A stretch of 64,000 nucleotides of DNA, taken from UHGV virus genome UHGV-0087418. One strand, given 5' to 3'. The position numbers were made by a program, and so were the translations under genes. A model generated the notes under the pieces. That model did not search any database. It saw only the letters and a program-made list of their open reading frames with translations, and was not told the origin of the DNA. Of this stretch, positions 42,015 through 64,000 are shown in pieces. Each line of letters begins with the position of its first letter. Position 1 is the first letter of the stretch. Source of the stretch: a virus.

Positions 42015-42485
42015 TTAATCATGTTTCCACACCCCATCGGTATTTGACCAAAGTCGCTGATTATCTGATCCTCGCCACAACTTTTTGGTCGGAAGATTTT
42101 TCTCATACTTCCCATCAATAATAACATCAACATATTTAAGCATTTCTAGTTGTTTAATATCTTCAAACTTATATCCTGTCCACAACCAAATGCTTTTATT
42201 TGGATAAAGATTTTTTACTGTTTGAACAATGCAATGAATAACATCTCGGTTATCAGGATAGAGAGGGTCTCCTCCAGTTATAGTTAATCCTTCTATATAA
42301 TCATTATTCAAACATTCAATTAATTGTTCCAGCGTTTCACCAGTGAATGGAATACCATTTCTAGCGTTCCATGTTGATTTATTATAACACCCTTCGCATT
42401 TATGCAAACAACCTGTAACGAAAAGAACGACCCTGCATCCAGGGCCATTCACAAAATCACAAGGATAAAATCTATCATAATTCAT
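42015..42485 (-). CDS. nrdG: anaerobic ribonucleotide reductase activating protein (radical SAM)
   Basis: 156 aa; CxxxCxxC-type cluster motif GCLHKCEGC; adjacent to nrdD. Confidence 0.85.
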   Translation of the reverse strand: MNYDRFYPCDFVNGPGCRVVLFVTGCLHKCEGCYNKSTWNARNGIPFTGETLEQLIECLNNDYIEGLTITGGDPLYPDNRDVIHCIVQTVKNLYPNKSIWLWTGYKFEDIKQLEMLKYVDVIIDGKYEKNLPTKKLWRGSDNQRLWSNTDGVWKHD

Positions 42486-44299
42486 TGGTGTTTAACCCTA
42501 TGCATGATTTCTTTATTTTTTCCAAGATTAAATCCGCGTTCATTCGGATTTCCCAAATAGCCACAAGTTCTTCTTATTGTGTTCATCTTTTTAGGATCAG
42601 TTTCTCCACAAATAGAACAAACAAACCCGTTTTCAGTAGGAGTCATTTCATGGGTACTTCCGCATGTAAAACATTTATCTACTGGCATATTAACACCAAA
42701 ATAATCTAAATGTTGTGCAGCATAATCCCATACAGCCTCAAGACCTTTTAGGTTATTTTTCATATCAGGAAGTTCAACATAAGAAATGTGACCACCTGTC
42801 GCAATGAAATGATATGGGGCTTCGCGAGAAATCTTTTCAAACGGAGTAATATTTTCTTCTACTGAAACATGGAAACTATTAGTGTACCAGCCTTTATCAG
42901 TAACATCCTTTACACTTCCATATTTCTCAGTATCAAGTTTACAGAAGCGATAGCACAGGTTTTCAGCAGGAGTAGAATACAAGCTAAAAGCAAAACCGGT
43001 TCTTTCAGTCCACTGCTTAAGACGAGCATTCATTTTAGTTAAAATTTCCTGTCCAATATCACGACCGGCAAGAATATTCAATTCGTGAATACCAATGTAT
43101 CCTAGGGACACTGAACTTCTACCGTTTTTAAATAACTCAATTATGTCGTCATCAGGTTTAAGACGAACCCCGAATGCACCTTCTTGGTAAAGAATAGGAG
43201 CAACAGTCGCTTTAACTCCTTTTAAGGAACTAATTCTACACATCAAAGCTTCAAAACACAAATCCATTCGTTCATTGAACAATTCGGCAAATTTCTGTTC
43301 ATTGAACTGTGTTCCAATATAAGAATCTAATGCAATACGAGGAAGATTCAGTGTTACAACACCAAGATTATTACGTCCATCAAGAATTTCATTACCAGTC
43401 GAATCTTTCCATACGCTCAAGAAACTACGACATCCCATTGGAGAAACAGGAATAGATGAACCAGTGATAGCTTTATTGTTCTTAGCTGAAATAATATCAG
43501 GATACATTCTTTTGCTTGCACACTCTAAAGCAAGCTGCTTAATATCATAGTTCGGATCGTCTTTATAAAGATTAACGCCTTCTTCAACGAACATAACAAG
43601 CTTAGGGAAAATAGGAGTTATCCCATCGCGACCAAGACCTTTAATACGATTTTTCAGAATTGCTTTCTGAATCATTCGTTCAGTCCAGTCAGTTCCCGTA
43701 CCAAACGTAATTGTTACAAAAGGTGTTTGTCCGTTTGAACTAAAGAGAGTATTTACTTCATATTCATAAGCTTGGAATGCATCGTATACGTCTTTTTCTG
43801 TTTTAGATTGGGCATAATTCAATGCATCAGCGATTTGCCATTTTTCTGCATCCTCAATATGTTTTGCATAGGTGCGTTTAACATAAGGAGAAAGTACTTT
43901 ATCTACATTCGCAAAAGTCGTTCCGCCATATTGATGAGAAGCAACCTGTGCAGTAATTTGTGCCATAATTGCAGTAGCAACGCCGATTGATTTAGGAGTT
44001 TCAATCTGCGCATTACCGAGCTTAAATCCATTCTCAAGCATTCCTTTTAAATCTACTAAACAGCAATTAGTAAATGGAAGAGCAGGGGAATAATCAATAT
44101 CGTGGAAATGGATAATTCCGCTTTCATGCGCTTTCATAATAAAAGACGGGACCATATTTTTGGCAATGTGTTTAGACACAATACCAGCCATAAGGTCCCG
44201 TTGAGTTGGAAAAACACGAGAATCTTTATTAGCATTCTCGTTTAAAAGGTCTTTATTAGTTTTATGAATCAATCCTTCAATTTCTTTTTCAATCGTCAT
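42482..44299 (-). CDS. nrdD: anaerobic ribonucleoside-triphosphate reductase (class III, glycyl radical)
   Basis: 605 aa uninterrupted; C-terminal glycyl-radical motif RRTCGYLG and Zn-ribbon CxxC...CxxC; no intron or I-TevII-like ORF. Confidence 0.9.
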   Translation of the reverse strand: MTIEKEIEGLIHKTNKDLLNENANKDSRVFPTQRDLMAGIVSKHIAKNMVPSFIMKAHESGIIHFHDIDYSPALPFTNCCLVDLKGMLENGFKLGNAQIETPKSIGVATAIMAQITAQVASHQYGGTTFANVDKVLSPYVKRTYAKHIEDAEKWQIADALNYAQSKTEKDVYDAFQAYEYEVNTLFSSNGQTPFVTITFGTGTDWTERMIQKAILKNRIKGLGRDGITPIFPKLVMFVEEGVNLYKDDPNYDIKQLALECASKRMYPDIISAKNNKAITGSSIPVSPMGCRSFLSVWKDSTGNEILDGRNNLGVVTLNLPRIALDSYIGTQFNEQKFAELFNERMDLCFEALMCRISSLKGVKATVAPILYQEGAFGVRLKPDDDIIELFKNGRSSVSLGYIGIHELNILAGRDIGQEILTKMNARLKQWTERTGFAFSLYSTPAENLCYRFCKLDTEKYGSVKDVTDKGWYTNSFHVSVEENITPFEKISREAPYHFIATGGHISYVELPDMKNNLKGLEAVWDYAAQHLDYFGVNMPVDKCFTCGSTHEMTPTENGFVCSICGETDPKKMNTIRRTCGYLGNPNERGFNLGKNKEIMHRVKHQ

Positions 44300-45557: not shown

Positions 45558-45878
45558 TTATAGCGTAATCCATTCTCGTACTGTCTGAGTTACTACACGT
45601 TCACGGGGCTCGACTAGTTCAACAGTCGGAACTGCATAATACCAGTCAGAATGGTAAGAACCTGAGCGAGTTTCATTTACAGACACATGAACGTTATGTT
45701 TTGGACTAAAATAAATGCACTGTCGATATTGGCATTTGCCGTCTTGTACCCAATCTTCTATTTCGATAGGTTTAAGATAATCTGAAAAATCGAAATCATA
45801 ATTTTCTGAAAATGCATCATGGTCTTCAATGATTTCACTCAGAACTGCATCAACATCTAATTTATTTTCAATATTCAT
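45558..45878 (-). CDS. hypothetical protein
   Basis: 106-aa ORF. Confidence 0.4.
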   Translation of the reverse strand: MNIENKLDVDAVLSEIIEDHDAFSENYDFDFSDYLKPIEIEDWVQDGKCQYRQCIYFSPKHNVHVSVNETRSGSYHSDWYYAVPTVELVEPRERVVTQTVREWITL

Positions 45879-45888
45879 TTTTCACCAA

Positions 45889-46098
45889 TTAATTTCGCAA
45901 TTTATTAAGTTCTTCATAATCAATCCAGGATTCTAGTCCTGATGGCAAATCAGATTCAATTTCCCAAAGAAGTTCTTCAATTTTCTGAAGACGATCTAAT
46001 TCTTCAGCAGGAATAGTAACCATTGACGGAGTTCTTGATACGCTAATATCGTAAATCATATTTACCCCAGTTTGACCATACAATCGCCATATTTCCAT
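45889..46098 (-). CDS. hypothetical protein
   Basis: 69-aa ORF. Confidence 0.35.
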   Translation of the reverse strand: MEIWRLYGQTGVNMIYDISVSRTPSMVTIPAEELDRLQKIEELLWEIESDLPSGLESWIDYEELNKLRN

Positions 46099-46538: not shown

Positions 46539-46796
46539 TTATTCCTTAATTCCTAGTACTTGTTTAAAAGTCTCGTCGTAATCAAGACTTTGGCCAGTTT
46601 GTTCTTTATGTTTGTATATAATATCACTTACTTCTGATAGCATATTTTTATATGAACGGGTTAAAGCAGATTTAAGCACGCTGTATCTATCAGGAAATTT
46701 ACCGTGTTCATTATAATACGCTATTGCTAATTCACGGACTGCCTTTTCAGCAGTCTCCATATATTCTTTACGCTTTGTCATTTTCTTCTCGGTCAA
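46539..46796 (-). CDS. hypothetical protein
   Basis: 85-aa ORF. Confidence 0.4.
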
Positions 46797-47085
46797 ATCG
46801 GTGTTTACAATGACGACATTTATAACGAAGATTACTAGTCTGCCAATGAACTAATTGTACCTGTTCAGTACCGCATTCAGGACAATTAGGAACGTTTTTA
46901 GAAGCCCTTTCGCGGCGTTCAACCATAGCCATAATGGCATCCCATGCTGGAGGTTTAAAATCTAAATCGTCACAACCATGAATCTTTCCACGCATTTCCA
47001 GATCGTCTTCTTCACCAGCCATAATAATTTTAATTAGACTGGAATTACTTGAAGCTGCAATATCTTCTAATAGACGCTTTTTCAT
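46768..47085 (-). CDS. hypothetical zinc-ribbon protein
   Basis: 105 aa; CPECG...CRHC near the C-terminus. Confidence 0.4.
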
Positions 47086-48008
47086 TTCAGCACCTCAATA
47101 GCATCACGTAAACCATCTGCTTTGGCGGTTAAAGCCTTAAGAACTTTAGTATGCTCTTCAATCTGTTTTTCAACTTCAATCAAACGAGCACTGAGATATT
47201 CACGTTCTTCTTTCATAGTATCATTCCCATGATTGTGCTTTGGTGTAGGTTTAAATTCGCTGGGGTCCTTTAACTTAATAACAAATTTAGTTTCAAACAG
47301 TGAAAGACCATAATTCGTATTATCATCAAAGGATTTAACTACATCCATATTAGATAATAACTCACGCAAATTATAAGCCAAAGAACTAATAGTTTCATTG
47401 TGTTTATTAGCTTCGTGCGGTTTCATATACGGAAGATTTTTATATATCTCGTGCGGAGCACAAATGATAATTGATAATTCAAATTGTCCATTCTGGGATG
47501 ATGGAGTGAATTTAGCAGTAACCCAGTCTTTTACATTCACATTAATAGTACGATTATCACCATGACAAAACAGTCTACGAGAATGCTTAAAAAGCATATT
47601 AACGTTCTCATTAAATTCACCTGAAAACTCACTAGCGAATTTTTCTTTACTATTTTTAGAAAACCATTCTTCTAAATAAGTTCTTTTCACGTCATTAATA
47701 ATATTAAATGTAACAACATTAGCATTTGATACATTAGTCTCAATGTAGCTTGGATACATAAATTTTTTAACATTATTAACAGCTATTACAGAAGATAGTA
47801 ATCGGGAACGTTTGAACCACTCTAGCAAAGAACCAAGAGAATGTGAATATGCATTTTGTGTATCTTTACAAATATGGTTTTCCCATCCAATATAGTCTAA
47901 AAAATCACGAAGAATATTATTGATTACTGCTCTGTGTCCGATCTGATAATTACGGTGTTTAGTAATAAGGCTGTCAAAATAATCAATATAATGTTTACGA
48001 GTTTTCAT
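47082..48008 (-). CDS. hypothetical protein, member 1 of a four-gene tandem paralogue array, coiled-coil C-terminus
   Basis: 308 aa; shares the R(R/I)xxxxFxxFxKQL-type mid-region motif and a C-terminal heptad tail with the next three ORFs. Confidence 0.5.
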   Translation of the reverse strand: MKTRKHYIDYFDSLITKHRNYQIGHRAVINNILRDFLDYIGWENHICKDTQNAYSHSLGSLLEWFKRSRLLSSVIAVNNVKKFMYPSYIETNVSNANVVTFNIINDVKRTYLEEWFSKNSKEKFASEFSGEFNENVNMLFKHSRRLFCHGDNRTINVNVKDWVTAKFTPSSQNGQFELSIIICAPHEIYKNLPYMKPHEANKHNETISSLAYNLRELLSNMDVVKSFDDNTNYGLSLFETKFVIKLKDPSEFKPTPKHNHGNDTMKEEREYLSARLIEVEKQIEEHTKVLKALTAKADGLRDAIEVLK

Positions 48009-48060
48009 GTTCTTCTCACTTGGTTAATGATTTATACTCCGAGCCATCCTTGGCTTTAAA

Positions 48061-49092
48061 TTACTTAATTAACTGTAAAGCTTGTTCAAGACGATCCAGG
48101 CGATTAACAGATTCTTCCCAAATCCTTTTAGCCTGCTCATAATCTTTCTGCGCTTTATTAGAAATTTCTAGAACTTCTTTATAAGCTTTTTCTAGTGCAA
48201 TAACTTCTGGACGAATTTCTACCGGTTCAGGTGAATCGTCAAGACATTCCATTAGTTCCTCAAGGGTAGTTTCTTCTTTAGGAGTATTCACAATTTCATC
48301 ACATTTTTGTTGGTAAATTTCTTTATCAGTCGGTGAGTACGCACACTTTACTTCACGGAGACTAACTACAATTTTATATCCTTCCCAACCGCATATATTC
48401 TTAAAAGGATAAGTATGAATATTTTCTACTGTTTCCATACAAAGTAATGCGGTCTCTAACTGACGAGTTATATCGCTAGCAATTGAGAAAAATTTATTAA
48501 TGTTCTTTTGATTAGCTTCTGGTGTAAAAAATTCATAATTCACAAAAATAGCTGCTTTATTTTTATCAAGCTCATATTCTTTTATGATAATCATATCAGA
48601 AGCCCAAGGATGGATTTGACGATAATCACCATAGCATAATTTAGAAGCTGATTTTAGAAGTTGCTTCTTGAAAAGTCTGAAATTACTAATCCAACGACGA
48701 GTAAAAATATTCTCAGGGTCTTCTTTATTATTAAGATGATAAGAATTAACATCACCGAACCAATTATATCCTACTACATCTTTAGTTCGTTTAATTTCTT
48801 TCCCAAATTTACTAAGAATATCTCTGTTGACTAAGTATGAAAGAAGACGAGAACCTTTAAAGGTTTCCTTAATATCATCTTTATATTCGCAACTAGAAAT
48901 TTTATGAACTTCATGAATAAATTTGTCGGAAGAAACAATACTTGCATCAGTATTGTTGAGCCACTGATTGATAATAGAAAGAACACTATTCTGACTAGAC
49001 ATAGATTTAACTTTATCATCAATAACGCTATTGAATGATTTGATATATTCGTTACGAGTCATATTAATCTCCTCAGTAGAAAGTAAGAACAT
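48061..49092 (-). CDS. hypothetical protein, paralogue array member 2
   Basis: 343 aa; C-terminal coiled coil ...KRIWEESVNRLDRLEQALQLIK. Confidence 0.5.
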   Translation of the reverse strand: MFLLSTEEINMTRNEYIKSFNSVIDDKVKSMSSQNSVLSIINQWLNNTDASIVSSDKFIHEVHKISSCEYKDDIKETFKGSRLLSYLVNRDILSKFGKEIKRTKDVVGYNWFGDVNSYHLNNKEDPENIFTRRWISNFRLFKKQLLKSASKLCYGDYRQIHPWASDMIIIKEYELDKNKAAIFVNYEFFTPEANQKNINKFFSIASDITRQLETALLCMETVENIHTYPFKNICGWEGYKIVVSLREVKCAYSPTDKEIYQQKCDEIVNTPKEETTLEELMECLDDSPEPVEIRPEVIALEKAYKEVLEISNKAQKDYEQAKRIWEESVNRLDRLEQALQLIK

Positions 49093-49119
49093 TATACCAC
49101 ATCCTTGTGGCGAAGTAAA

Positions 49120-50142
49120 CTAGTTTAGTGCATTTAGTGCATTGTTCAGTTTAGAACGTTGCTTCGTAAGATTTTTGACTTTTTCTTGAGCTTTTTCTAG
49201 CATCTTTTCAGCTTCTAACACTTCATTAGTTGCTTTAACGAGTTCATCATCTACTGCCTTGATAGACTTCTCAATCGCATCCGCATGCCATTTTTCAACA
49301 GGTTTAAGACTCGGATTTTCAACAGGAAGAAAATTCACTTTATTGAATTTCCATGCATCTTTATTACTTGAACTATACATCCAAAATTTAGGATCGTTTG
49401 ATGAGTAATTGGATAAATTTAAGTTATCTTGCACTTCCTGCTTTTTCTCTTGTGGGACTTCGTCCTTTCTCAAAAAATCGTATTTAAATGAAACGATCAT
49501 ATCAAGTTCATACGTTGTTGTATGTTCCCAATTTCGCTCAAAATGAGGTAAAATCTTAGACTGAACAGCGGCAACAACATCCATATACTTAAATGCTTCT
49601 GTCAACTGTGATTTAAGGCATTCGCAAATTGAAAGAGAATTTTTTGTATTAGGTTTAAAGCTAATTCGCGCAGTTCTGTTATTTTCTTTTAATGGTCTTA
49701 CTTCCATCTGAAGAGTATAACCATCAAATTTCAGATTCTTTAAGTTAATATCAGAACCTTTTAATCGACTCGCAATTGATAAAATTTGTTTTAATTGTTT
49801 ACGGAATAGAGCAATAAATCTCCATTCAATACGATAATGATTTGGATTGAAAAATCCAGATGATAAATCGACCTTACTTTGACCAACGCCTTGAACAAAT
49901 AGAGGATTTTTATAATCAATAGTTTTACAGAAATCGGTGAGCTGCTCACGAGCAGTCATTTGTGTAATATATCCTGCTTGGTTAAAATTGCGCACCCATT
50001 CACTGCTGTTCAGATGTTTAAAGGCATGAATGGAACAATTAACTTTACCAAGGTCTAAATTATTTTCACACAAAAACGTCATAGCATCACGAGTATAGCT
50101 GGCATTACGAACCATATCTTCAATTTGAGAACGAGTTTTCAT
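49120..50142 (-). CDS. hypothetical protein, paralogue array member 3
   Basis: 340 aa; C-terminal coiled coil ...EAEKMLEKAQEKVKNLTKQRSKLNNALNALN. Confidence 0.5.
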   Translation of the reverse strand: MKTRSQIEDMVRNASYTRDAMTFLCENNLDLGKVNCSIHAFKHLNSSEWVRNFNQAGYITQMTAREQLTDFCKTIDYKNPLFVQGVGQSKVDLSSGFFNPNHYRIEWRFIALFRKQLKQILSIASRLKGSDINLKNLKFDGYTLQMEVRPLKENNRTARISFKPNTKNSLSICECLKSQLTEAFKYMDVVAAVQSKILPHFERNWEHTTTYELDMIVSFKYDFLRKDEVPQEKKQEVQDNLNLSNYSSNDPKFWMYSSSNKDAWKFNKVNFLPVENPSLKPVEKWHADAIEKSIKAVDDELVKATNEVLEAEKMLEKAQEKVKNLTKQRSKLNNALNALN

Positions 50143-50150
50143 GGTGTTCC

Positions 50151-51062
50151 TTAAGATTTAAGTAAATCGACAATTTTAATTAACTTTTCACGCTCAGATT
50201 TAGCTTTACTACTCAGTCCAGATAGTCTGAAAATTTCATCATCATATTGTTGAATAGAAATATTCAGCTCTTCAATTTGCTTATTAAAATAATCAATTTG
50301 TTCAGAATGTTTTTCGTTACTACGAACTGGTACAGGTTTCGTAGGCAATGTAGTTGAACTGGATTCATCCGGGCGGTAAATTAAAATACAACTTGAACCA
50401 ATAGGGCATTTTGCACCAGATGAATATTCTAATGTTCCAGATTCTTTTAAAACTTCAAAAGCTAAACAGAGATGATGCCCCATATTAATATAATCTGTAG
50501 AGCGAGCTCTGATGTAATAATCATCGCCACGAATACTAAATTTAAAGCATTTAAGGTCTTCTGTATTATTGGTCTTAAAAATCATTTGTTTATCTAGACC
50601 TTTAGCTAATCGAGCGCCCAATGCTAATAATCGTCGTTGATTTTCCCACAAATCCGCAATCATTTGATCGAATGATAATTTCGGCATTAGTCGACCGTAA
50701 AGGTCATATCCTTTATTATAATTACGAAGGATTTCATTCGCGTTAATACGAGACAATGCTCCAATTTTATTAAGAGCTTTCATAATGCGATTAGATAAAC
50801 TCATTCCAGATCCGTTTGTTCGCTGCAAATGTTTTTCTAATCCAAATCCAATATCAACTTTAAACTTATCTAAAATTTCTGCATGAACATCTCTGTCAAT
50901 AACATTCAAATCCAAAGTTGAGTTAAATCTATGAAAAAATTTATCTGGCTCTGCACTGCGAAATACAGTCCATTCATTCATCATTTTTTTATTAACTAAA
51001 GATTTAATTACTGCATTGACATTATTAATTACTACTGACATATTTTCCTCACTCAATTTCAA
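50151..51062 (-). CDS. hypothetical protein, paralogue array member 4
   Basis: 303 aa; C-terminal coiled coil ...IFRLSGLSSKAKSEREKLIKIVDLLKS. Confidence 0.5.
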   Translation of the reverse strand: MKLSEENMSVVINNVNAVIKSLVNKKMMNEWTVFRSAEPDKFFHRFNSTLDLNVIDRDVHAEILDKFKVDIGFGLEKHLQRTNGSGMSLSNRIMKALNKIGALSRINANEILRNYNKGYDLYGRLMPKLSFDQMIADLWENQRRLLALGARLAKGLDKQMIFKTNNTEDLKCFKFSIRGDDYYIRARSTDYINMGHHLCLAFEVLKESGTLEYSSGAKCPIGSSCILIYRPDESSSTTLPTKPVPVRSNEKHSEQIDYFNKQIEELNISIQQYDDEIFRLSGLSSKAKSEREKLIKIVDLLKS

Positions 51063-51456: not shown

Positions 51457-51511
51457 AATAATCTCAATTAAAAGGGCTTAGAACCATTATACCATCCTTG
51501 GTATAAAGCGG

Positions 51512-52039
51512 TTATGCGAGTACCGTCTTTAACCGTTCTTCAAACTTCCGAAGAGTATTTTGGCGTTCAGCTCTTTGCTTTTTGTAAGTTTCAATACGCT
51601 CTGAAATGAGAGTGTATCGTTCATTTACTGATTCTTTCATAAAATCAGGAATTTCACGAGAAGCTTTAATCTCGTCAAATTTATCAATAACAGCTTGCTC
51701 TTCAGCAATTAAGTTATCATACATTAAAATATCTTTCTTGATGAACTCAATATCTTCTTGAGTTACACGAGATAATTTAGATGCTTTATCCTTTTTGTAC
51801 TGTTTGTTAGTATCACGAGACCAGTGTAATGTACGATTTTTATTCGTATTTTTGTAAATTTCTACAATACCGATCTCATCAATAATAACAATCCAATTCC
51901 AACGTGATTTGTAAATTTGTCCTCCATCAACAGTGATTTCACCTCCGATTGAGATGTCATTAAAGAACTTGCTTTGTGCTTCAGATTTAAATTTACCATC
52001 GTTATAATTTACTAAGTTGAAAATATCTTTAGCGTTCAT
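51512..52039 (-). CDS. hypothetical protein
   Basis: 175-aa ORF, charged C-terminal half. Confidence 0.4.
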   Translation of the reverse strand: MNAKDIFNLVNYNDGKFKSEAQSKFFNDISIGGEITVDGGQIYKSRWNWIVIIDEIGIVEIYKNTNKNRTLHWSRDTNKQYKKDKASKLSRVTQEDIEFIKKDILMYDNLIAEEQAVIDKFDEIKASREIPDFMKESVNERYTLISERIETYKKQRAERQNTLRKFEERLKTVLA

Positions 52040-61814: not shown

Positions 61815-62135
61815 TTATTCTTTAAATCTAATCAATTTATTCATAGACTTTGAAACTTCTGCACGGACCTCATGTAGGTTTTTAAGCTGTTCAAGACGTT
61901 GCTCATAGTAAGCAATTTCATCTTCTTCGAGGCAGTCCTGTGAATCTTCTTTAAGATAACGCGCATAGTCCTGGAAAGCGTTACGAATTACTTCCTGGAA
62001 ATCATCAAGACTTTGAATTTTCTTAGGAGCAACAGATACACGACGAGGGGCAGTATAATACTCATAACCAAACCCTGCGCTTAATTGAGCCATTAATATT
62101 TTTCCTCTGGTTGGAATACCGCGCGACAAGCCCAC
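61815..62135 (-). CDS. hypothetical protein
   Basis: 106-aa ORF. Confidence 0.4.
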
Positions 62136-62395
62136 ATACTAGCTTCTTTGAGTTTCGTTTTAGCAATAGTTAGCTGATCAAGGCTTTCAGCATAATTCTT
62201 TGCGAATTCGTAGTCTTCGCAATTATCTAGTGCTTCCCAGAATTCATCGTATAAAGCGTCAAAGATAAGTCCTAAACGAACTTCAGCGTCTTTAATAGCA
62301 TTCACTTTATCGATTTTCTCTTCAGTGTGCGGCTTATAACCTTTAATATCTTCAATCATATTTGACTTCCTCACCCGTTCCCAAATCATATTCAA
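62093..62395 (-). CDS. hypothetical protein
   Basis: 100-aa ORF; start may be internal. Confidence 0.4.
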
Positions 62396-62573
62396 CTAAA
62401 CGAATAGGTTCATGAATGCCATATCCTTGAACAGAAATTTCTGTCGTAGGATAAATTCCATTAATATCACCCATGTTCCACGCTTCATTAAATTGCTGTT
62501 CGCCTGAATTACTAAACCATTCTGCAAAAGCATTTAACACATCTTCAGAACCTTCAATAATTATCTTTGCCAT
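62352..62573 (-). CDS. hypothetical protein (last phage-type gene before the junction)
   Basis: 73 aa; AT-rich phage codon usage; its ATG (62571-62573) overlaps the grcA stop codon in a TAATG arrangement. Confidence 0.45.
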   Translation of the reverse strand: MAKIIIEGSEDVLNAFAEWFSNSGEQQFNEAWNMGDINGIYPTTEISVQGYGIHEPIRLVEYDLGTGEEVKYD

Positions 62574-62956
62574 TACAAGCTCTCAGTAAAGGTACGAGCG
62601 ATAACGTCGCGCTGCTGTTCCGGAGTCAGAGAGTTAAAGCGAACTGCATAACCGGATACACGGATGGTCAGCTGCGGATATTTTTCCGGATGCTTAACTG
62701 CATCTTCCAGAGTTTCACGACGCAGAACGTTAACGTTCAGGTGCTGACCACCTTCAACGCGAACTTCTGGTTTCACTTCTACTGGAACTTCACGGTACTC
62801 AATGTCACCCAGTTTGCTTACTGCAACCACTTCGTCTTCTGCATAACCTGCTTTTGCAACGATGCAACGTGCTTCGCCTTTTTCGCTGTCCAGCAGCCAG
62901 AAAGAGTTCAGCAGATCGTCGTTAGCGGCTTTAGTAATCTGGATACCTGTAATCAT
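62573..62956 (-). CDS. grcA: autonomous glycyl radical cofactor GrcA (YfiD), host-type
   Basis: 127 aa from [16 protein letters not shown]... to ...[29 protein letters not shown] (glycyl-radical motif RVSGY); GC-rich E. coli codon usage unlike the flanking phage DNA; the ORF-track N-terminal extension MPGRHH is discarded. Confidence 0.9.
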
Positions 62957-63063
62957 GTGATGCCTCCCCGGCAAAATTATTTGATTTGTTCAGCCTGTCG
63001 CGGCCAATTGGTAAAACCATTGTTGCTTGAGTGTATATATACTCCTCAAACACCCTTGAATCT

Positions 63064-63077
63064 TTGATTTAAATCAA
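63064..63077 (-). promoter_or_regulatory. FNR-type binding site (TTGAT-N4-ATCAA) in the grcA promoter region
   Basis: Perfect palindrome ttgatttaaatcaa at 63064-63077 upstream of grcA; grcA is known to be FNR-activated. Confidence 0.55.
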
Positions 63078-63260
63078 TAAAAACCACACATCAAGTGTGG
63101 TCGCAAATGGATTTTATTGTTTTACATCAACTTATGCGGGTGTGAAATTTTACCAATTTACATTTTTTTGCACTCGTTTAAGTCTAAAAAATGAGCATGA
63201 TTTTGTTCTGTAGAAAGAAGCAGTTAAGCTAGGCGGATTGAAGATTCGCAGGAGAGCGAG

Positions 63261-63950
63261 ATGGCTAACGAATTAACCTGGCATGACGTGCTGGCTGAAG
63301 AGAAGCAACAACCTTATTTTCTTAATACCCTTCAGACCGTCGCCAGCGAGCGGCAGTCCGGCGTCACTATCTATCCACCACAAAAAGATGTCTTTAACGC
63401 GTTCCGCTTTACCGAGTTGGGTGACGTTAAAGTGGTGATTCTCGGCCAGGATCCTTATCACGGACCGGGACAGGCGCATGGTCTGGCATTTTCCGTTCGT
63501 CCCGGCATTGCCATTCCTCCGTCATTATTGAATATGTATAAAGAGCTGGAAAATACTATTCCGGGCTTCACCCGCCCTAATCATGGTTATCTTGAAAGCT
63601 GGGCGCGTCAGGGCGTTCTGCTACTCAATACTGTGTTGACGGTACGCGCAGGTCAGGCGCATTCCCACGCCAGCCTCGGCTGGGAAACCTTCACCGATAA
63701 AGTGATCAGCCTGATTAACCAGCATCGCGAAGGCGTGGTGTTTTTGTTGTGGGGATCGCATGCGCAAAAGAAAGGGGCGATTATAGATAAGCAACGCCAT
63801 CATGTACTGAAAGCACCGCATCCGTCGCCGCTTTCGGCTCATCGTGGATTCTTTGGCTGCAACCATTTTGTGCTGGCAAATCAGTGGCTGGAACAACATG
63901 GCGAGACGCCGATTGACTGGATGCCAGTATTACCGGCAGAGAGTGAGTAA
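63261..63950 (+). CDS. ung: uracil-DNA glycosylase
   Basis: 229 aa, [25 protein letters not shown]... with the UDG active-site motif [14 protein letters not shown]; E. coli-type sequence and composition; divergent from grcA as in E. coli K-12. Confidence 0.95.
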
Positions 63951-64000
63951 ATTTGCGGGAAAATGCCGGATGGCAGAGTTGCCACCCGGCTGATTTATCA

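What the first reader, a model, noticed from the sequence alone, without database searches (positions are those of the whole stretch)
47082..51062. Tandem array of four diverged paralogues with C-terminal coiled-coil tails
Four consecutive minus-strand genes (308, 343, 340, 303 aa) share architecture (N-terminal domain, a conserved basic/aromatic helix, and a heptad-repeat tail of 30-40 residues) but are highly diverged. Tandem diversifying paralogues in a phage accessory region are typical of host-interaction or anti-defence families in which each copy targets a different host variant.
Basis: partly seen in the sequence, partly recalled or inferred. Interest (0 to 1): 0.5.

Follow-up and report, generated by a model that had tools for sequence, protein, structure and literature searches.

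The report
T-even phage nrdC.3–nrdC.6 paralogue array
Four neighbouring early genes of a T4-like phage are very old, highly diverged copies of one gene, and since one copy (nrdC.5) is already known to disarm the bacterial Dsr1 immune protein, the other three are good candidates for undiscovered anti-immunity factors.

Summary
The window is a T-even phage (Tequatrovirus), and the four minus-strand genes are nrdC.3, nrdC.4, nrdC.5 and nrdC.6. Two lengths need correcting: nrdC.4 is 333 aa and nrdC.6 is 296 aa.

Evidence that they are paralogues:
- **nrdC.3–nrdC.4:** HHalign probability 98%.
- **nrdC.5 to nrdC.3/4:** probability 91%, and 85% with the tails removed; reversed controls are null.
- **nrdC.6:** joined mainly by structure. 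Its AlphaFold model has the same element order as nrdC.4 and hits the same viral proteins, including NrdC.3. Sequence support is weak.

All four share one architecture: a helical N-domain, a variable α/β domain, a floppy linker and a 45–55-residue heptad helix. Within each orthologue family the tail is the most conserved part, but tails differ between paralogues.

Arrays of 2–4 copies occupy the same position across Straboviridae, including Acinetobacter phage Acj61.

The anti-defence reading is supported for one member only. T4 nrdC.5 (91% identical) counteracts Dsr1 (Srikant et al. 2022). For the others it is inference from paralogy, dispensability, faster evolution and an anti-defence neighbourhood.

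The parts
47082..48008 (-). nrdC.3, 308 aa. Paralogue 1 (PF26897 / phrog_1435): head plus a heptad tail at about residues 269-308.
   Evidence: ORF; name; phrog_1435 E 3.5e-99; HHalign to the nrdC.4 family 98.1%, E 7e-14; heptad z 4.1 at 278-305.
48061..49062 (-). nrdC.4, 333 aa from the corrected start (the finding used 49092, giving 343 aa). Paralogue 2 (PF26897 / phrog_1435). In 343-aa numbering: helical domain 13-94, alpha/beta domain 98-245, low-confidence linker about 250-294, helix 295-342.
49091..49119 (-). Sigma-70/T4-early-type promoter-like site (TTTACT-17-TATAAT with an extended -10 TG) just upstream of nrdC.4. Its -10 box overlaps the spurious upstream ATG.
   Evidence: Consensus scan, 10 of 12 matches; sequence context. 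A consensus match only; function is not shown.
49120..50142 (-). nrdC.5, 340 aa. Paralogue 3 (Pfam DUF7235 / PF23882 / phrog_2351). Orthologue of the T4 gene shown to counteract Dsr1. Tail at about 283-340.
   Evidence: DUF7235 E 1.6e-126; 91.2% aa identity to T4 nrdC.5 at the syntenic position; HHalign to nrdC.3/4 91%, E 1e-6, and heads only 85%; heptad z 4.0; function from PMC9391042.
50151..51041 (-). nrdC.6, 296 aa from the corrected start (the finding used the TTG at 51062, giving 303 aa). Paralogue 4 (PF26899 / phrog_2257). In 303-aa numbering: helix pair 131-152, two beta-hairpins flanking helix 194-207, linker 235-249, helix 249-302.
   Evidence: SD GAGGAA before the ATG at 51041; phrog_2257 E 4e-151; AF2 pLDDT 76.3, pTM 0.63; Foldseek hits shared with nrdC.4, plus NrdC.3 at prob 0.94; merged-profile HHalign P 1e-3 to 1e-5 versus reversed controls 0.63/0.03.
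48009..48060 (-). nrdC.4-nrdC.3 intergenic spacer. It holds a TTTAAA...TATAAA promoter-like sequence and the CAAGGATG element that is also found upstream of nrdC.4 and nrdC.7.
   Evidence: Sequence; CAAGGATG count of 6 versus 1.75 expected. Weak.

Best explanation
nrdC.3, nrdC.4, nrdC.5 and nrdC.6 are four ancient paralogues of one Straboviridae-specific protein superfamily, arrayed head-to-tail in the early, dispensable nrdC-nrdC.11 region.

Each protein has four parts: an N-terminal helical bundle, a central alpha/beta domain that varies most between phages, a flexible linker, and a 45-55-residue amphipathic heptad helix. That helix most likely forms a paralogue-specific coiled-coil oligomer.

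The family most likely consists of protein inhibitors of host anti-phage immunity. nrdC.5 neutralises the SIR2-TPR defence protein Dsr1. This is shown for the 91%-identical T4 orthologue. It probably acts by direct binding that blocks either trigger sensing (major capsid protein, sensed by the TPR domain) or NADase activation. That step is inferred by analogy with DSAD1-DSR2. The other three paralogues are inferred to neutralise other defence proteins in the same manner.

Shown here: paralogy, architecture, distribution and evolutionary rates. Shown elsewhere: the anti-Dsr1 activity of nrdC.5. Inferred: direct binding, oligomerisation through the tail, and any anti-defence role for nrdC.3, nrdC.4 and nrdC.6.
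For: Paralogy:
- nrdC.3-nrdC.4: BLASTP E 6e-4, same PHROG, HHalign 98.1%.
- nrdC.3/4 versus nrdC.5: HHalign 91.1%, E 1e-6, over 249 colinear columns. Heads only: 85.1%, E 6e-6. Reversed-profile controls: P 0.2-0.7.
- nrdC.6: AF2 model with the same element order as nrdC.4. Foldseek hits the same BFVD proteins as nrdC.4 (PM2, IME523, fHyAci03, Acj61 E5E4A2, Cronus, fHe-Yen9-01, PS2) plus NrdC.3 of fPS-65 at E 2e-3, prob 0.94. Merged-profile HHalign gives P 2.5e-4 to 1e-3 locally and 1e-5 globally, against reversed controls of 0.63 and 0.03.

Tail:
- Terminal helices in both models.
- The best heptad window is in the tail in all four.
- The tail is the best-conserved region within each family.

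Function:
- T4 nrdC.5 expressed from a plasmid restores plating of a deletion phage on MG1655 carrying dsr1 (PMC9391042).
- Dsr1 carries a TPR sensor triggered by major capsid protein (PMC12803255).

Context:
- Promoter-like sites lie upstream, and the paper calls nrdC.5 an early gene.
- dN/dS is 0.14-0.20, against 0.00-0.08 for housekeeping neighbours.
- The Pin (Lon inhibitor) gene and the orthologue of the T6 OLD inhibitor Gp49.2 lie 1-2 kb away.
- No enzyme family, defence family or solved structure matches by sequence.
Against: - Only one of the four has any functional data, and even there the mechanism (direct or indirect) is unknown.
- Gene-wide dN/dS is well below 1, so there is no direct signature of an arms race.
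- All four genes are retained in nearly every Tequatrovirus. That would also fit a conserved host-takeover function.
- The nrdC.6 link rests on predicted structures of moderate confidence (pLDDT 76) and on weak sequence statistics.
- TM-scores to shared BFVD hits are only 0.4-0.5 because domain orientations differ.
- Coiled-coil oligomerisation was not modelled.
Confidence: 0.6

Rival explanations
1. The four proteins are paralogues, but their common job is host takeover rather than immune evasion. They would bind and re-programme conserved host proteins early in infection. The anti-Dsr1 effect of nrdC.5 would then be indirect, for example by changing the timing or state of the Dsr1 trigger or by changing NAD+ metabolism.
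For: - The array is retained with the same gene order in nearly all Tequatroviruses and in other genera.
- Net purifying selection, dN/dS 0.07-0.20.
- The mechanism of rescue was not studied in PMC9391042.
- NAD+-restoring pathways are known to counter Dsr1 (PMC13464706).
Against: - nrdC.5 alone is sufficient for rescue.
- The genes can be deleted without loss of growth on laboratory hosts.
- The variable alpha/beta domain with a conserved tail looks like a target-tracking binder.
Confidence: 0.2
2. Only nrdC.3, nrdC.4 and nrdC.5 are true paralogues. nrdC.6 would be an unrelated protein that converged on a similar size and a coiled-coil tail, and the structural matches would be dominated by the long helix.
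For: - Family-level HHalign of nrdC.6 against each other family alone is not significant: P 0.005-0.04, probability below 8%.
- The nrdC.6 model has a lower pLDDT of 76.
- Foldseek TM-scores are 0.24-0.48.
Against: - The same ordered elements appear after the N-domain, including a helix pair at almost identical residue numbers (129-152 versus 131-152) that carries the shared [KR]L..G.D motif.
- Foldseek alignments span 300-390 columns, not just the tail, and include NrdC.3 at prob 0.94.
- The head-only merged profile gives P 9.7e-4, against 0.63 for the reversed control.
- nrdC.6 keeps a conserved syntenic position next to nrdC.5-like genes in several genera.
Confidence: 0.12
3. The proteins are virion- or assembly-associated factors descended from a tail-terminator or tail-completion protein, acting in morphogenesis rather than in immunity.
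Against: - The genes lie in the early region with sigma-70-type promoter-like sites, far from the structural modules.
- nrdC.5 is described as an early gene, and it was lost in a viable evolved T4 clone.
- The 'tail sheath stabilizer' label on T6 nrdC.5 is a propagated annotation error.
Confidence: 0.03

Closest known systems
T4 NrdC.5, the anti-Dsr1 counter-defence gene (Srikant, Guegler & Laub 2022, eLife, PMC9391042); Pfam DUF7235 (PF23882)
   Same: The window gene at 49120-50142 is its orthologue: 91% aa identity, the same position in the array and the same length. It scores 422 bits against DUF7235, whose cut-off is 30.
   Different: The published work treats nrdC.5 as a lone uncharacterised gene. 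Its relationship to nrdC.3, nrdC.4 and nrdC.6, its domain architecture and its coiled-coil tail are not described there. The activity of this particular allele was not tested.
DSAD1, the SPbeta-phage inhibitor of DSR2
   Same: It is a phage protein that switches off a SIR2-domain NADase defence by binding the sensor region and competing with the structural-protein trigger (abstracts of PMC10973363, PMC11087589 and PMC11263360). This is the working analogy for how NrdC.5 may act on Dsr1.
   Different: No similarity was looked for or found. The host, phage family and target (DSR2 versus Dsr1) all differ. The resemblance is functional analogy only, and membership is not claimed.
Phage tail-terminator / tail-completion fold (lambda gpU, T5 p142, SPP1 gp17-like, GTA terminator, DUF3168)
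   Different: The scores are low, identity is 3-17%, and extra N- and C-terminal domains are present. The genes are early and dispensable and lie outside the structural module. Ring assembly is untested. This is a fold resemblance, not membership.
Other multi-gene anti-defence islands of T-even phages (dmd-tifA-adfA 'anti-TA island'; pin / T6 Gp49.2 next to this array)
   Same: These are also clusters of small early, dispensable genes that each neutralise a different host defence (PMC9391042; PMC13096335).
   Different: Those islands hold unrelated genes. Here, four adjacent genes are paralogues of a single fold, and 2-4-copy tandem arrays are conserved across the virus family.

Membership tests
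Pfam DUF7235 (PF23882) - NrdC.5 family | Score above the Pfam gathering threshold over the full-length model | tested here: met
   nrdC.5: 422.3 bits against a cut-off of 30, model positions 1-307 of 307. The other three paralogues do not hit this model.
Pfam PF26897 (NrdC.3/NrdC.4 family) / phrog_1435 | Significant full-length match to the family profile | tested here: met
   phrog_1435: nrdC.3 E 3.5e-99 and nrdC.4 E 3.2e-164. All homologues of both carry precomputed PF26897. PF26897 itself is not in the local Pfam copy, so the window proteins were not scored against it directly.
Pfam PF26899 (NrdC.6 family) / phrog_2257 | Significant full-length match to the family profile | tested here: met
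   phrog_2257 E 4.2e-151, positions 1-303 of 303. All 105 homologues carry precomputed PF26899. PF26899 is not in the local Pfam copy.
Single NrdC.3-6 superfamily (proposed here) | Head-domain homology independent of the coiled-coil tail | tested here: met
   nrdC.3-nrdC.4: 98.1% over columns 3-232. nrdC.3/4-nrdC.5 heads: 85.1%, E 6e-6. Reversed controls are null. For nrdC.6 the head-only result is P 9.7e-4, with shared Foldseek hits over 300-390 columns. That link is weaker but consistent.
Single NrdC.3-6 superfamily (proposed here) | C-terminal heptad-repeat helix of 45-55 residues after a flexible linker | tested here: met
   AF2 helices 295-342 (nrdC.4) and 249-302 (nrdC.6), each preceded by a segment with pLDDT below 50-60. 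The best heptad window is in the tail in all four, with z 4.1, 2.4, 4.0 and 1.8. The oligomeric state was not tested.
Anti-Dsr1 counter-defence protein | Orthology to the experimentally tested T4 nrdC.5 | tested here: met
   91.2% aa identity and the syntenic position between nrdC.6 and nrdC.4. This applies to nrdC.5 only.
Anti-Dsr1 counter-defence protein | Expression restores phage plating on Dsr1-carrying cells | not testable with these tools
   Shown for the T4 allele in PMC9391042. It has not been shown for this allele or for nrdC.3, nrdC.4 or nrdC.6.
Thioredoxin/glutaredoxin (the product name given to these genes in many GenBank records) | Thioredoxin fold with a CxxC active site | tested here: not met
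   No thioredoxin or glutaredoxin Pfam hit at E up to 0.1. None of the four translations contains a CxxC motif. The models are helical-bundle plus alpha/beta plus long-helix proteins. The label is carried over from the locus name.
Tail terminator / tail completion proteins (gpU-like) | Strong structural match to the family fold | tested here: inconclusive
Tail terminator / tail completion proteins (gpU-like) | Encoded in the late structural module and present in virions | tested here: not met
   The genes lie between nrdC and nrdC.7-11 in the early region, and nrdC.5 is described as an early, non-essential gene. Virion content was not tested.

The most novel reading that the evidence does not exclude
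The NrdC.3-6 superfamily is a Straboviridae-wide toolkit of coiled-coil-oligomerised decoys whose variable alpha/beta domain was derived from a tail-terminator-like structural protein. Each paralogue would plug the sensor of a different host pattern-recognition defence, such as different members of the Dsr1/Avs7 TPR-sensor clade or other sensors of structural proteins. On this reading, one ancient gene family accounts for several still-unassigned counter-defence activities of T4-like phages.
Probability: 0.15. Interest if true: 0.75.

Novelty: new member of a known kind. Interest (0 to 1): 0.5.

Why it matters
T4 is the best-studied lytic phage, yet most of its early accessory genes have no assigned function. 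This analysis shows that the one characterised gene here (nrdC.5, anti-Dsr1) belongs to a four-member paralogue array with a shared fold and tail, and that 2–4-copy arrays sit at the same position across the virus family. That turns three "hypothetical proteins", and their many relatives in Acinetobacter, Klebsiella, Serratia, Yersinia, Erwinia and Pectobacterium phages, into concrete candidates for new immune inhibitors. It also suggests a design principle that can be tested with simple genetics: a conserved oligomerising tail and a fast-changing target-binding domain. Finally, it links three Pfam families that are currently separate, and it flags widespread "thioredoxin" mis-annotation.

Tried and rejected
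- **Pairwise BLASTP** among the four: only nrdC.3–nrdC.4 is significant. BLASTP is insufficient on its own.
- **First-pass family profiles:** too shallow for nrdC.5 (all members at least 80% identical), giving 12% probability against nrdC.4. This was fixed by adding Dhakavirus, Gaprivervirus and JK45 homologues found by tblastn.
- **Exhaustive HMMER search with the nrdC.5 profile** against 1.84 billion representatives: only 13 hits, and none bridges to the other families.
- **Sequence search of the PDB** with three family profiles: nothing below E 0.1.
- **NCBIfam and PADLOC:** nothing meaningful.
- **"Tail sheath stabilizer and completion protein" on T6 nrdC.5:** traced to name propagation from another record that also mislabels nrdC.8. 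Rejected as evidence.
- **"Thioredoxin" labels:** rejected.
- **Acj61 p120/p121 against my profiles by HHalign:** not significant. Their membership rests on Foldseek hits and synteny only.
- **P0261** (foreign head on the nrdC.5 tail): it exists only on an 803-bp metagenome contig, could be an assembly chimera, and was not used.
- **nrdC.8 as a fifth member:** its tail heptad score is within noise (z 1.5), and there is no profile or fold evidence. Not included.
- **The 106-aa gene at 45558–45878:** I first took it to be the OLD inhibitor. Checking the residues named in the paper showed that the orthologue is the 56-aa gene at 45889–46059.


Full report
**What the window is.** The region is 98.9% identical to Shigella phage vB_SsoM_113 and about 95% identical to T2 and T6. 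503 phage records match it. The neighbours are nrdD, endonuclease VII, pin and nrdC. The four minus-strand ORFs of the finding are nrdC.3 (47082–48008), nrdC.4, nrdC.5 (49120–50142) and nrdC.6.

**Corrected gene starts.**
- nrdC.4: the ATG at 49092 lies inside the −10 box of a promoter-like site (TTTACT‑17‑TGgTATAAT) and has no Shine-Dalgarno sequence. The ATG at 49062 follows GAGGAG. The gene is therefore 48061–49062, 333 aa.
- nrdC.6: the TTG at 51062 has no SD, and the ATG at 51041 follows GAGGAA. The gene is therefore 50151–51041, 296 aa.
- Homologues and other annotated records use these lengths.

**Are the four related?**
- BLASTP detects only nrdC.3–nrdC.4 (E 6e‑4, 26% identity over 172 residues).
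- The databases split them into three families: phrog_1435/PF26897 (nrdC.3 and nrdC.4), phrog_2351/DUF7235 (nrdC.5) and phrog_2257/PF26899 (nrdC.6).
- Profile-profile comparison confirms nrdC.3–nrdC.4 at 98.1% probability, E 7e‑14.
- The nrdC.5 family was at first too shallow. tblastn found homologues at 20–28% identity in Dhakavirus, Gaprivervirus and the JK45 lineage.
- With those homologues added, nrdC.3/4 versus nrdC.5 gives 91.1% probability, E 1e‑6, over 249 colinear columns.
- With the tails cut off, the heads still match at 85.1%, E 6e‑6, over 157 columns. Reversed-profile controls give P 0.2–0.7. The similarity is therefore not a coiled-coil artefact.
- nrdC.6 is not significant against either family alone (P 0.005–0.04).
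- Against a merged nrdC.3/4/5 profile, nrdC.6 reaches P 2.5e‑4 to 1e‑3 locally, 9.7e‑4 head-only and 1e‑5 in global mode. Reversed controls give 0.63 and 0.03.
- The aligned segments are the SRLLS…L..F helix and the [KR]L..G.D loop that all four carry.

**Structure.** The nrdC.4 model (pLDDT 82.8, pTM 0.68) has a helical bundle at 13–94. It then has three strands, a helix pair at 129–152, a β-hairpin, helix 195–218 and a second β-hairpin, followed by a low-confidence linker and helix 295–342. The nrdC.6 model (pLDDT 76.3, pTM 0.63) repeats this order: helix pair 131–152, hairpin, helix 194–207, hairpin, disordered 235–249 and helix 249–302.

Foldseek against BFVD returns the same uncharacterised Straboviridae proteins for both models at probability 1.0. 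These are from PM2, IME523, fHyAci03, Acj61 (E5E4A2), Cronus and fHe‑Yen9‑01. Both models also hit NrdC.3 of fPS‑65, with nrdC.4 at E 2e‑7 and nrdC.6 at E 2e‑3 (prob 0.94). The alignments span 300–390 columns. TM-scores are only 0.4–0.5, which fits flexible domain arrangements. I conclude that all four are one superfamily. The nrdC.6 link is the least certain.

**The tail.** The best heptad window falls in the C-terminal tail of every paralogue: nrdC.3 278–305 (z 4.1), nrdC.4 300–327 (z 2.4), nrdC.5 286–313 (z 4.0) and nrdC.6 253–280 (z 1.8). Within each orthologue family, compared across genera, the tail is the most conserved region and the α/β domain the least:

| Family | Tail identity | α/β domain identity |
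|---|---|---|
| nrdC.3 | 82% | 49% |
| nrdC.4 | 62% | 41% |
| nrdC.6 | 64% | 47% |
| nrdC.5 | 38% | 24% |

Between paralogues the tails share only about 19% identity. The stalk-and-variable-head picture therefore holds, but each paralogue keeps its own tail sequence. This suggests paralogue-specific oligomers or partners, which is inference.

**Distribution.**
- Tequatroviruses carry four copies, and 462 of 503 matching records cover at least 80% of the array.
- Dhakaviruses carry three: nrdC.6, an nrdC.5-like gene and nrdC.4.
- JK45 carries three.
- The Gaprivervirus TH15 carries three, one of them frameshifted in an unverified record.
- Acinetobacter phage Acj61 (subfamily Twarogvirinae) carries two tandem genes of 330 and 304 aa between nrdC and nrdC.10. 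Their lengths match the two BFVD hits E5E4A1 and E5E4A2.
- The array is therefore ancient and positionally stable.
- An exhaustive HMMER search found almost no nrdC.5 relatives outside these phages.

**Evolutionary rate.** Against T4 and T6, nrdC.3, nrdC.4 and nrdC.5 have dN/dS of 0.14–0.20. The values for nrdD, gp49, nrdC, nrdC.1 and nrdC.8–10 are 0.00–0.08. The array genes evolve faster than their neighbours but are not under gene-wide positive selection.

**Function.** Srikant, Guegler & Laub (2022) found that an evolved T4 clone with deletions could not plate on ECOR17 unless dsr1 was deleted. The dsr1 gene alone protected MG1655. [quoted passage not shown] The window gene is 91% identical to T4 nrdC.5.

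Dsr1 combines a SIR2 NADase with a TPR sensor shared with Avs7, and it is triggered by major capsid protein (PMC12803255). No later paper in the library names an anti-Dsr1 family or links nrdC.5 to its neighbours.

The surrounding region holds other counter-defence genes. Pin is annotated as an inhibitor of the host Lon protease. The T6 OLD inhibitor Gp49.2 has its window orthologue at 45889–46059.

No enzyme, defence or solved-structure family matches the four proteins by sequence. A non-enzymatic binder or inhibitor is therefore the most economical reading. Direct binding of Dsr1 is inferred by analogy with DSAD1–DSR2. Anti-defence roles for nrdC.3, nrdC.4 and nrdC.6 are also inference.

This could mean the α/β domain derives from, or mimics, a structural protein. 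It could equally be a generic α/β sandwich resemblance. It was seen for one model only. The matching "tail sheath stabilizer" label in a T6 record is a propagated annotation error.

**Verdict.** Paralogy holds and is not confined to the helical tail, and the anti-defence role is experimentally true for one member. "Diversifying" and "each copy targets a different variant" remain unproven. The genes themselves are long known. What is new is their unification into one superfamily with a defined architecture, which nominates three candidate immune inhibitors in a model phage.

Noticed in passing
window 45889-46059 (-): This 56-aa ORF is 98% identical to the T6 protein that a 2026 paper calls Gp49.2 and shows to inhibit the OLD defence system (residues M13, T15 and W32 match). 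The ORF list shows it as 45889-46098, starting at an upstream ATG. The different 106-aa T4-type '49.2' gene at 45558-45878 is not that inhibitor, and T6 lacks it.
   Followed up: yes
P0056 (metagenome/ENA protein, 299 aa); corresponds to window about 49330-49700 joined to 47082-47600: A natural fusion protein: nrdC.5 residues about 147-272 joined in frame to nrdC.3 from residue about 137 (junction KFNKVN|MLFKH), with nrdC.4 deleted. This is a rearrangement within the array.
   Followed up: partly
P0057 (Shigella phage Sf25, 378 aa); homologue of window 50151-51041: An nrdC.6 allele with an 82-residue internal tandem duplication (IRAHSTDY...NKQIEEL repeated) just before the tail.
   Followed up: no
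P0261 / L008 120-641: A 173-aa protein with an unrelated 118-residue head fused to a tail identical to nrdC.5 residues about 288-340. It is known only from an 803-bp metagenome contig, so it may be an assembly chimera or a real head swap.
   Followed up: partly
window 48045-48052, 49100-49107, 51493-51500 (- strand): The octamer CAAGGATG recurs in the spacer of promoter-like sequences upstream of nrdC.3, nrdC.4 and nrdC.7. There are 6 copies in the window against 1.75 expected, and 1 of 100 shuffles reached 6. The site upstream of nrdC.7 also has a MotA-box-like GCTTTA 12 nt before TATAAT.
   Followed up: partly
window 47082-51062 and many GenBank records: nrdC.3-nrdC.6 are labelled 'thioredoxin' or 'Mur ligase domain-containing protein' in many phage records. 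One T6 record labels nrdC.5 'tail sheath stabilizer and completion protein'. None of these labels is supported by sequence or by the models.
   Followed up: yes
window 51512-52039 (-), nrdC.8: This 175-aa protein also ends in a charged helical segment with some heptad character (z 1.5, not significant). A 175-aa Klebsiella phage protein appeared weakly (prob 0.54) in the nrdC.6 fold search. A possible distant or truncated relative is not established.
   Followed up: partly
window 42482-44299 (-) nrdD; compare L006 and L007: The window's nrdD is uninterrupted, whereas T4 nrdD is split and carries a homing endonuclease. T6 has a seg-like endonuclease between nrdC.9 and nrdC.10 that the window lacks. 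This is mobile-endonuclease presence/absence polymorphism around the array.
   Followed up: no
window 62001-64000: GC content rises to 0.448 against about 0.32-0.37 elsewhere in the window. No tRNA genes were found anywhere in the window.
   Followed up: no
window 46768-47085 (-), nrdC.2: This zinc-ribbon protein overlaps the nrdC.3 stop by 4 bases. It is only 70% identical to the T6 copy (dN/dS 0.48), making it the fastest-evolving gene of the neighbourhood in that comparison.
   Followed up: no
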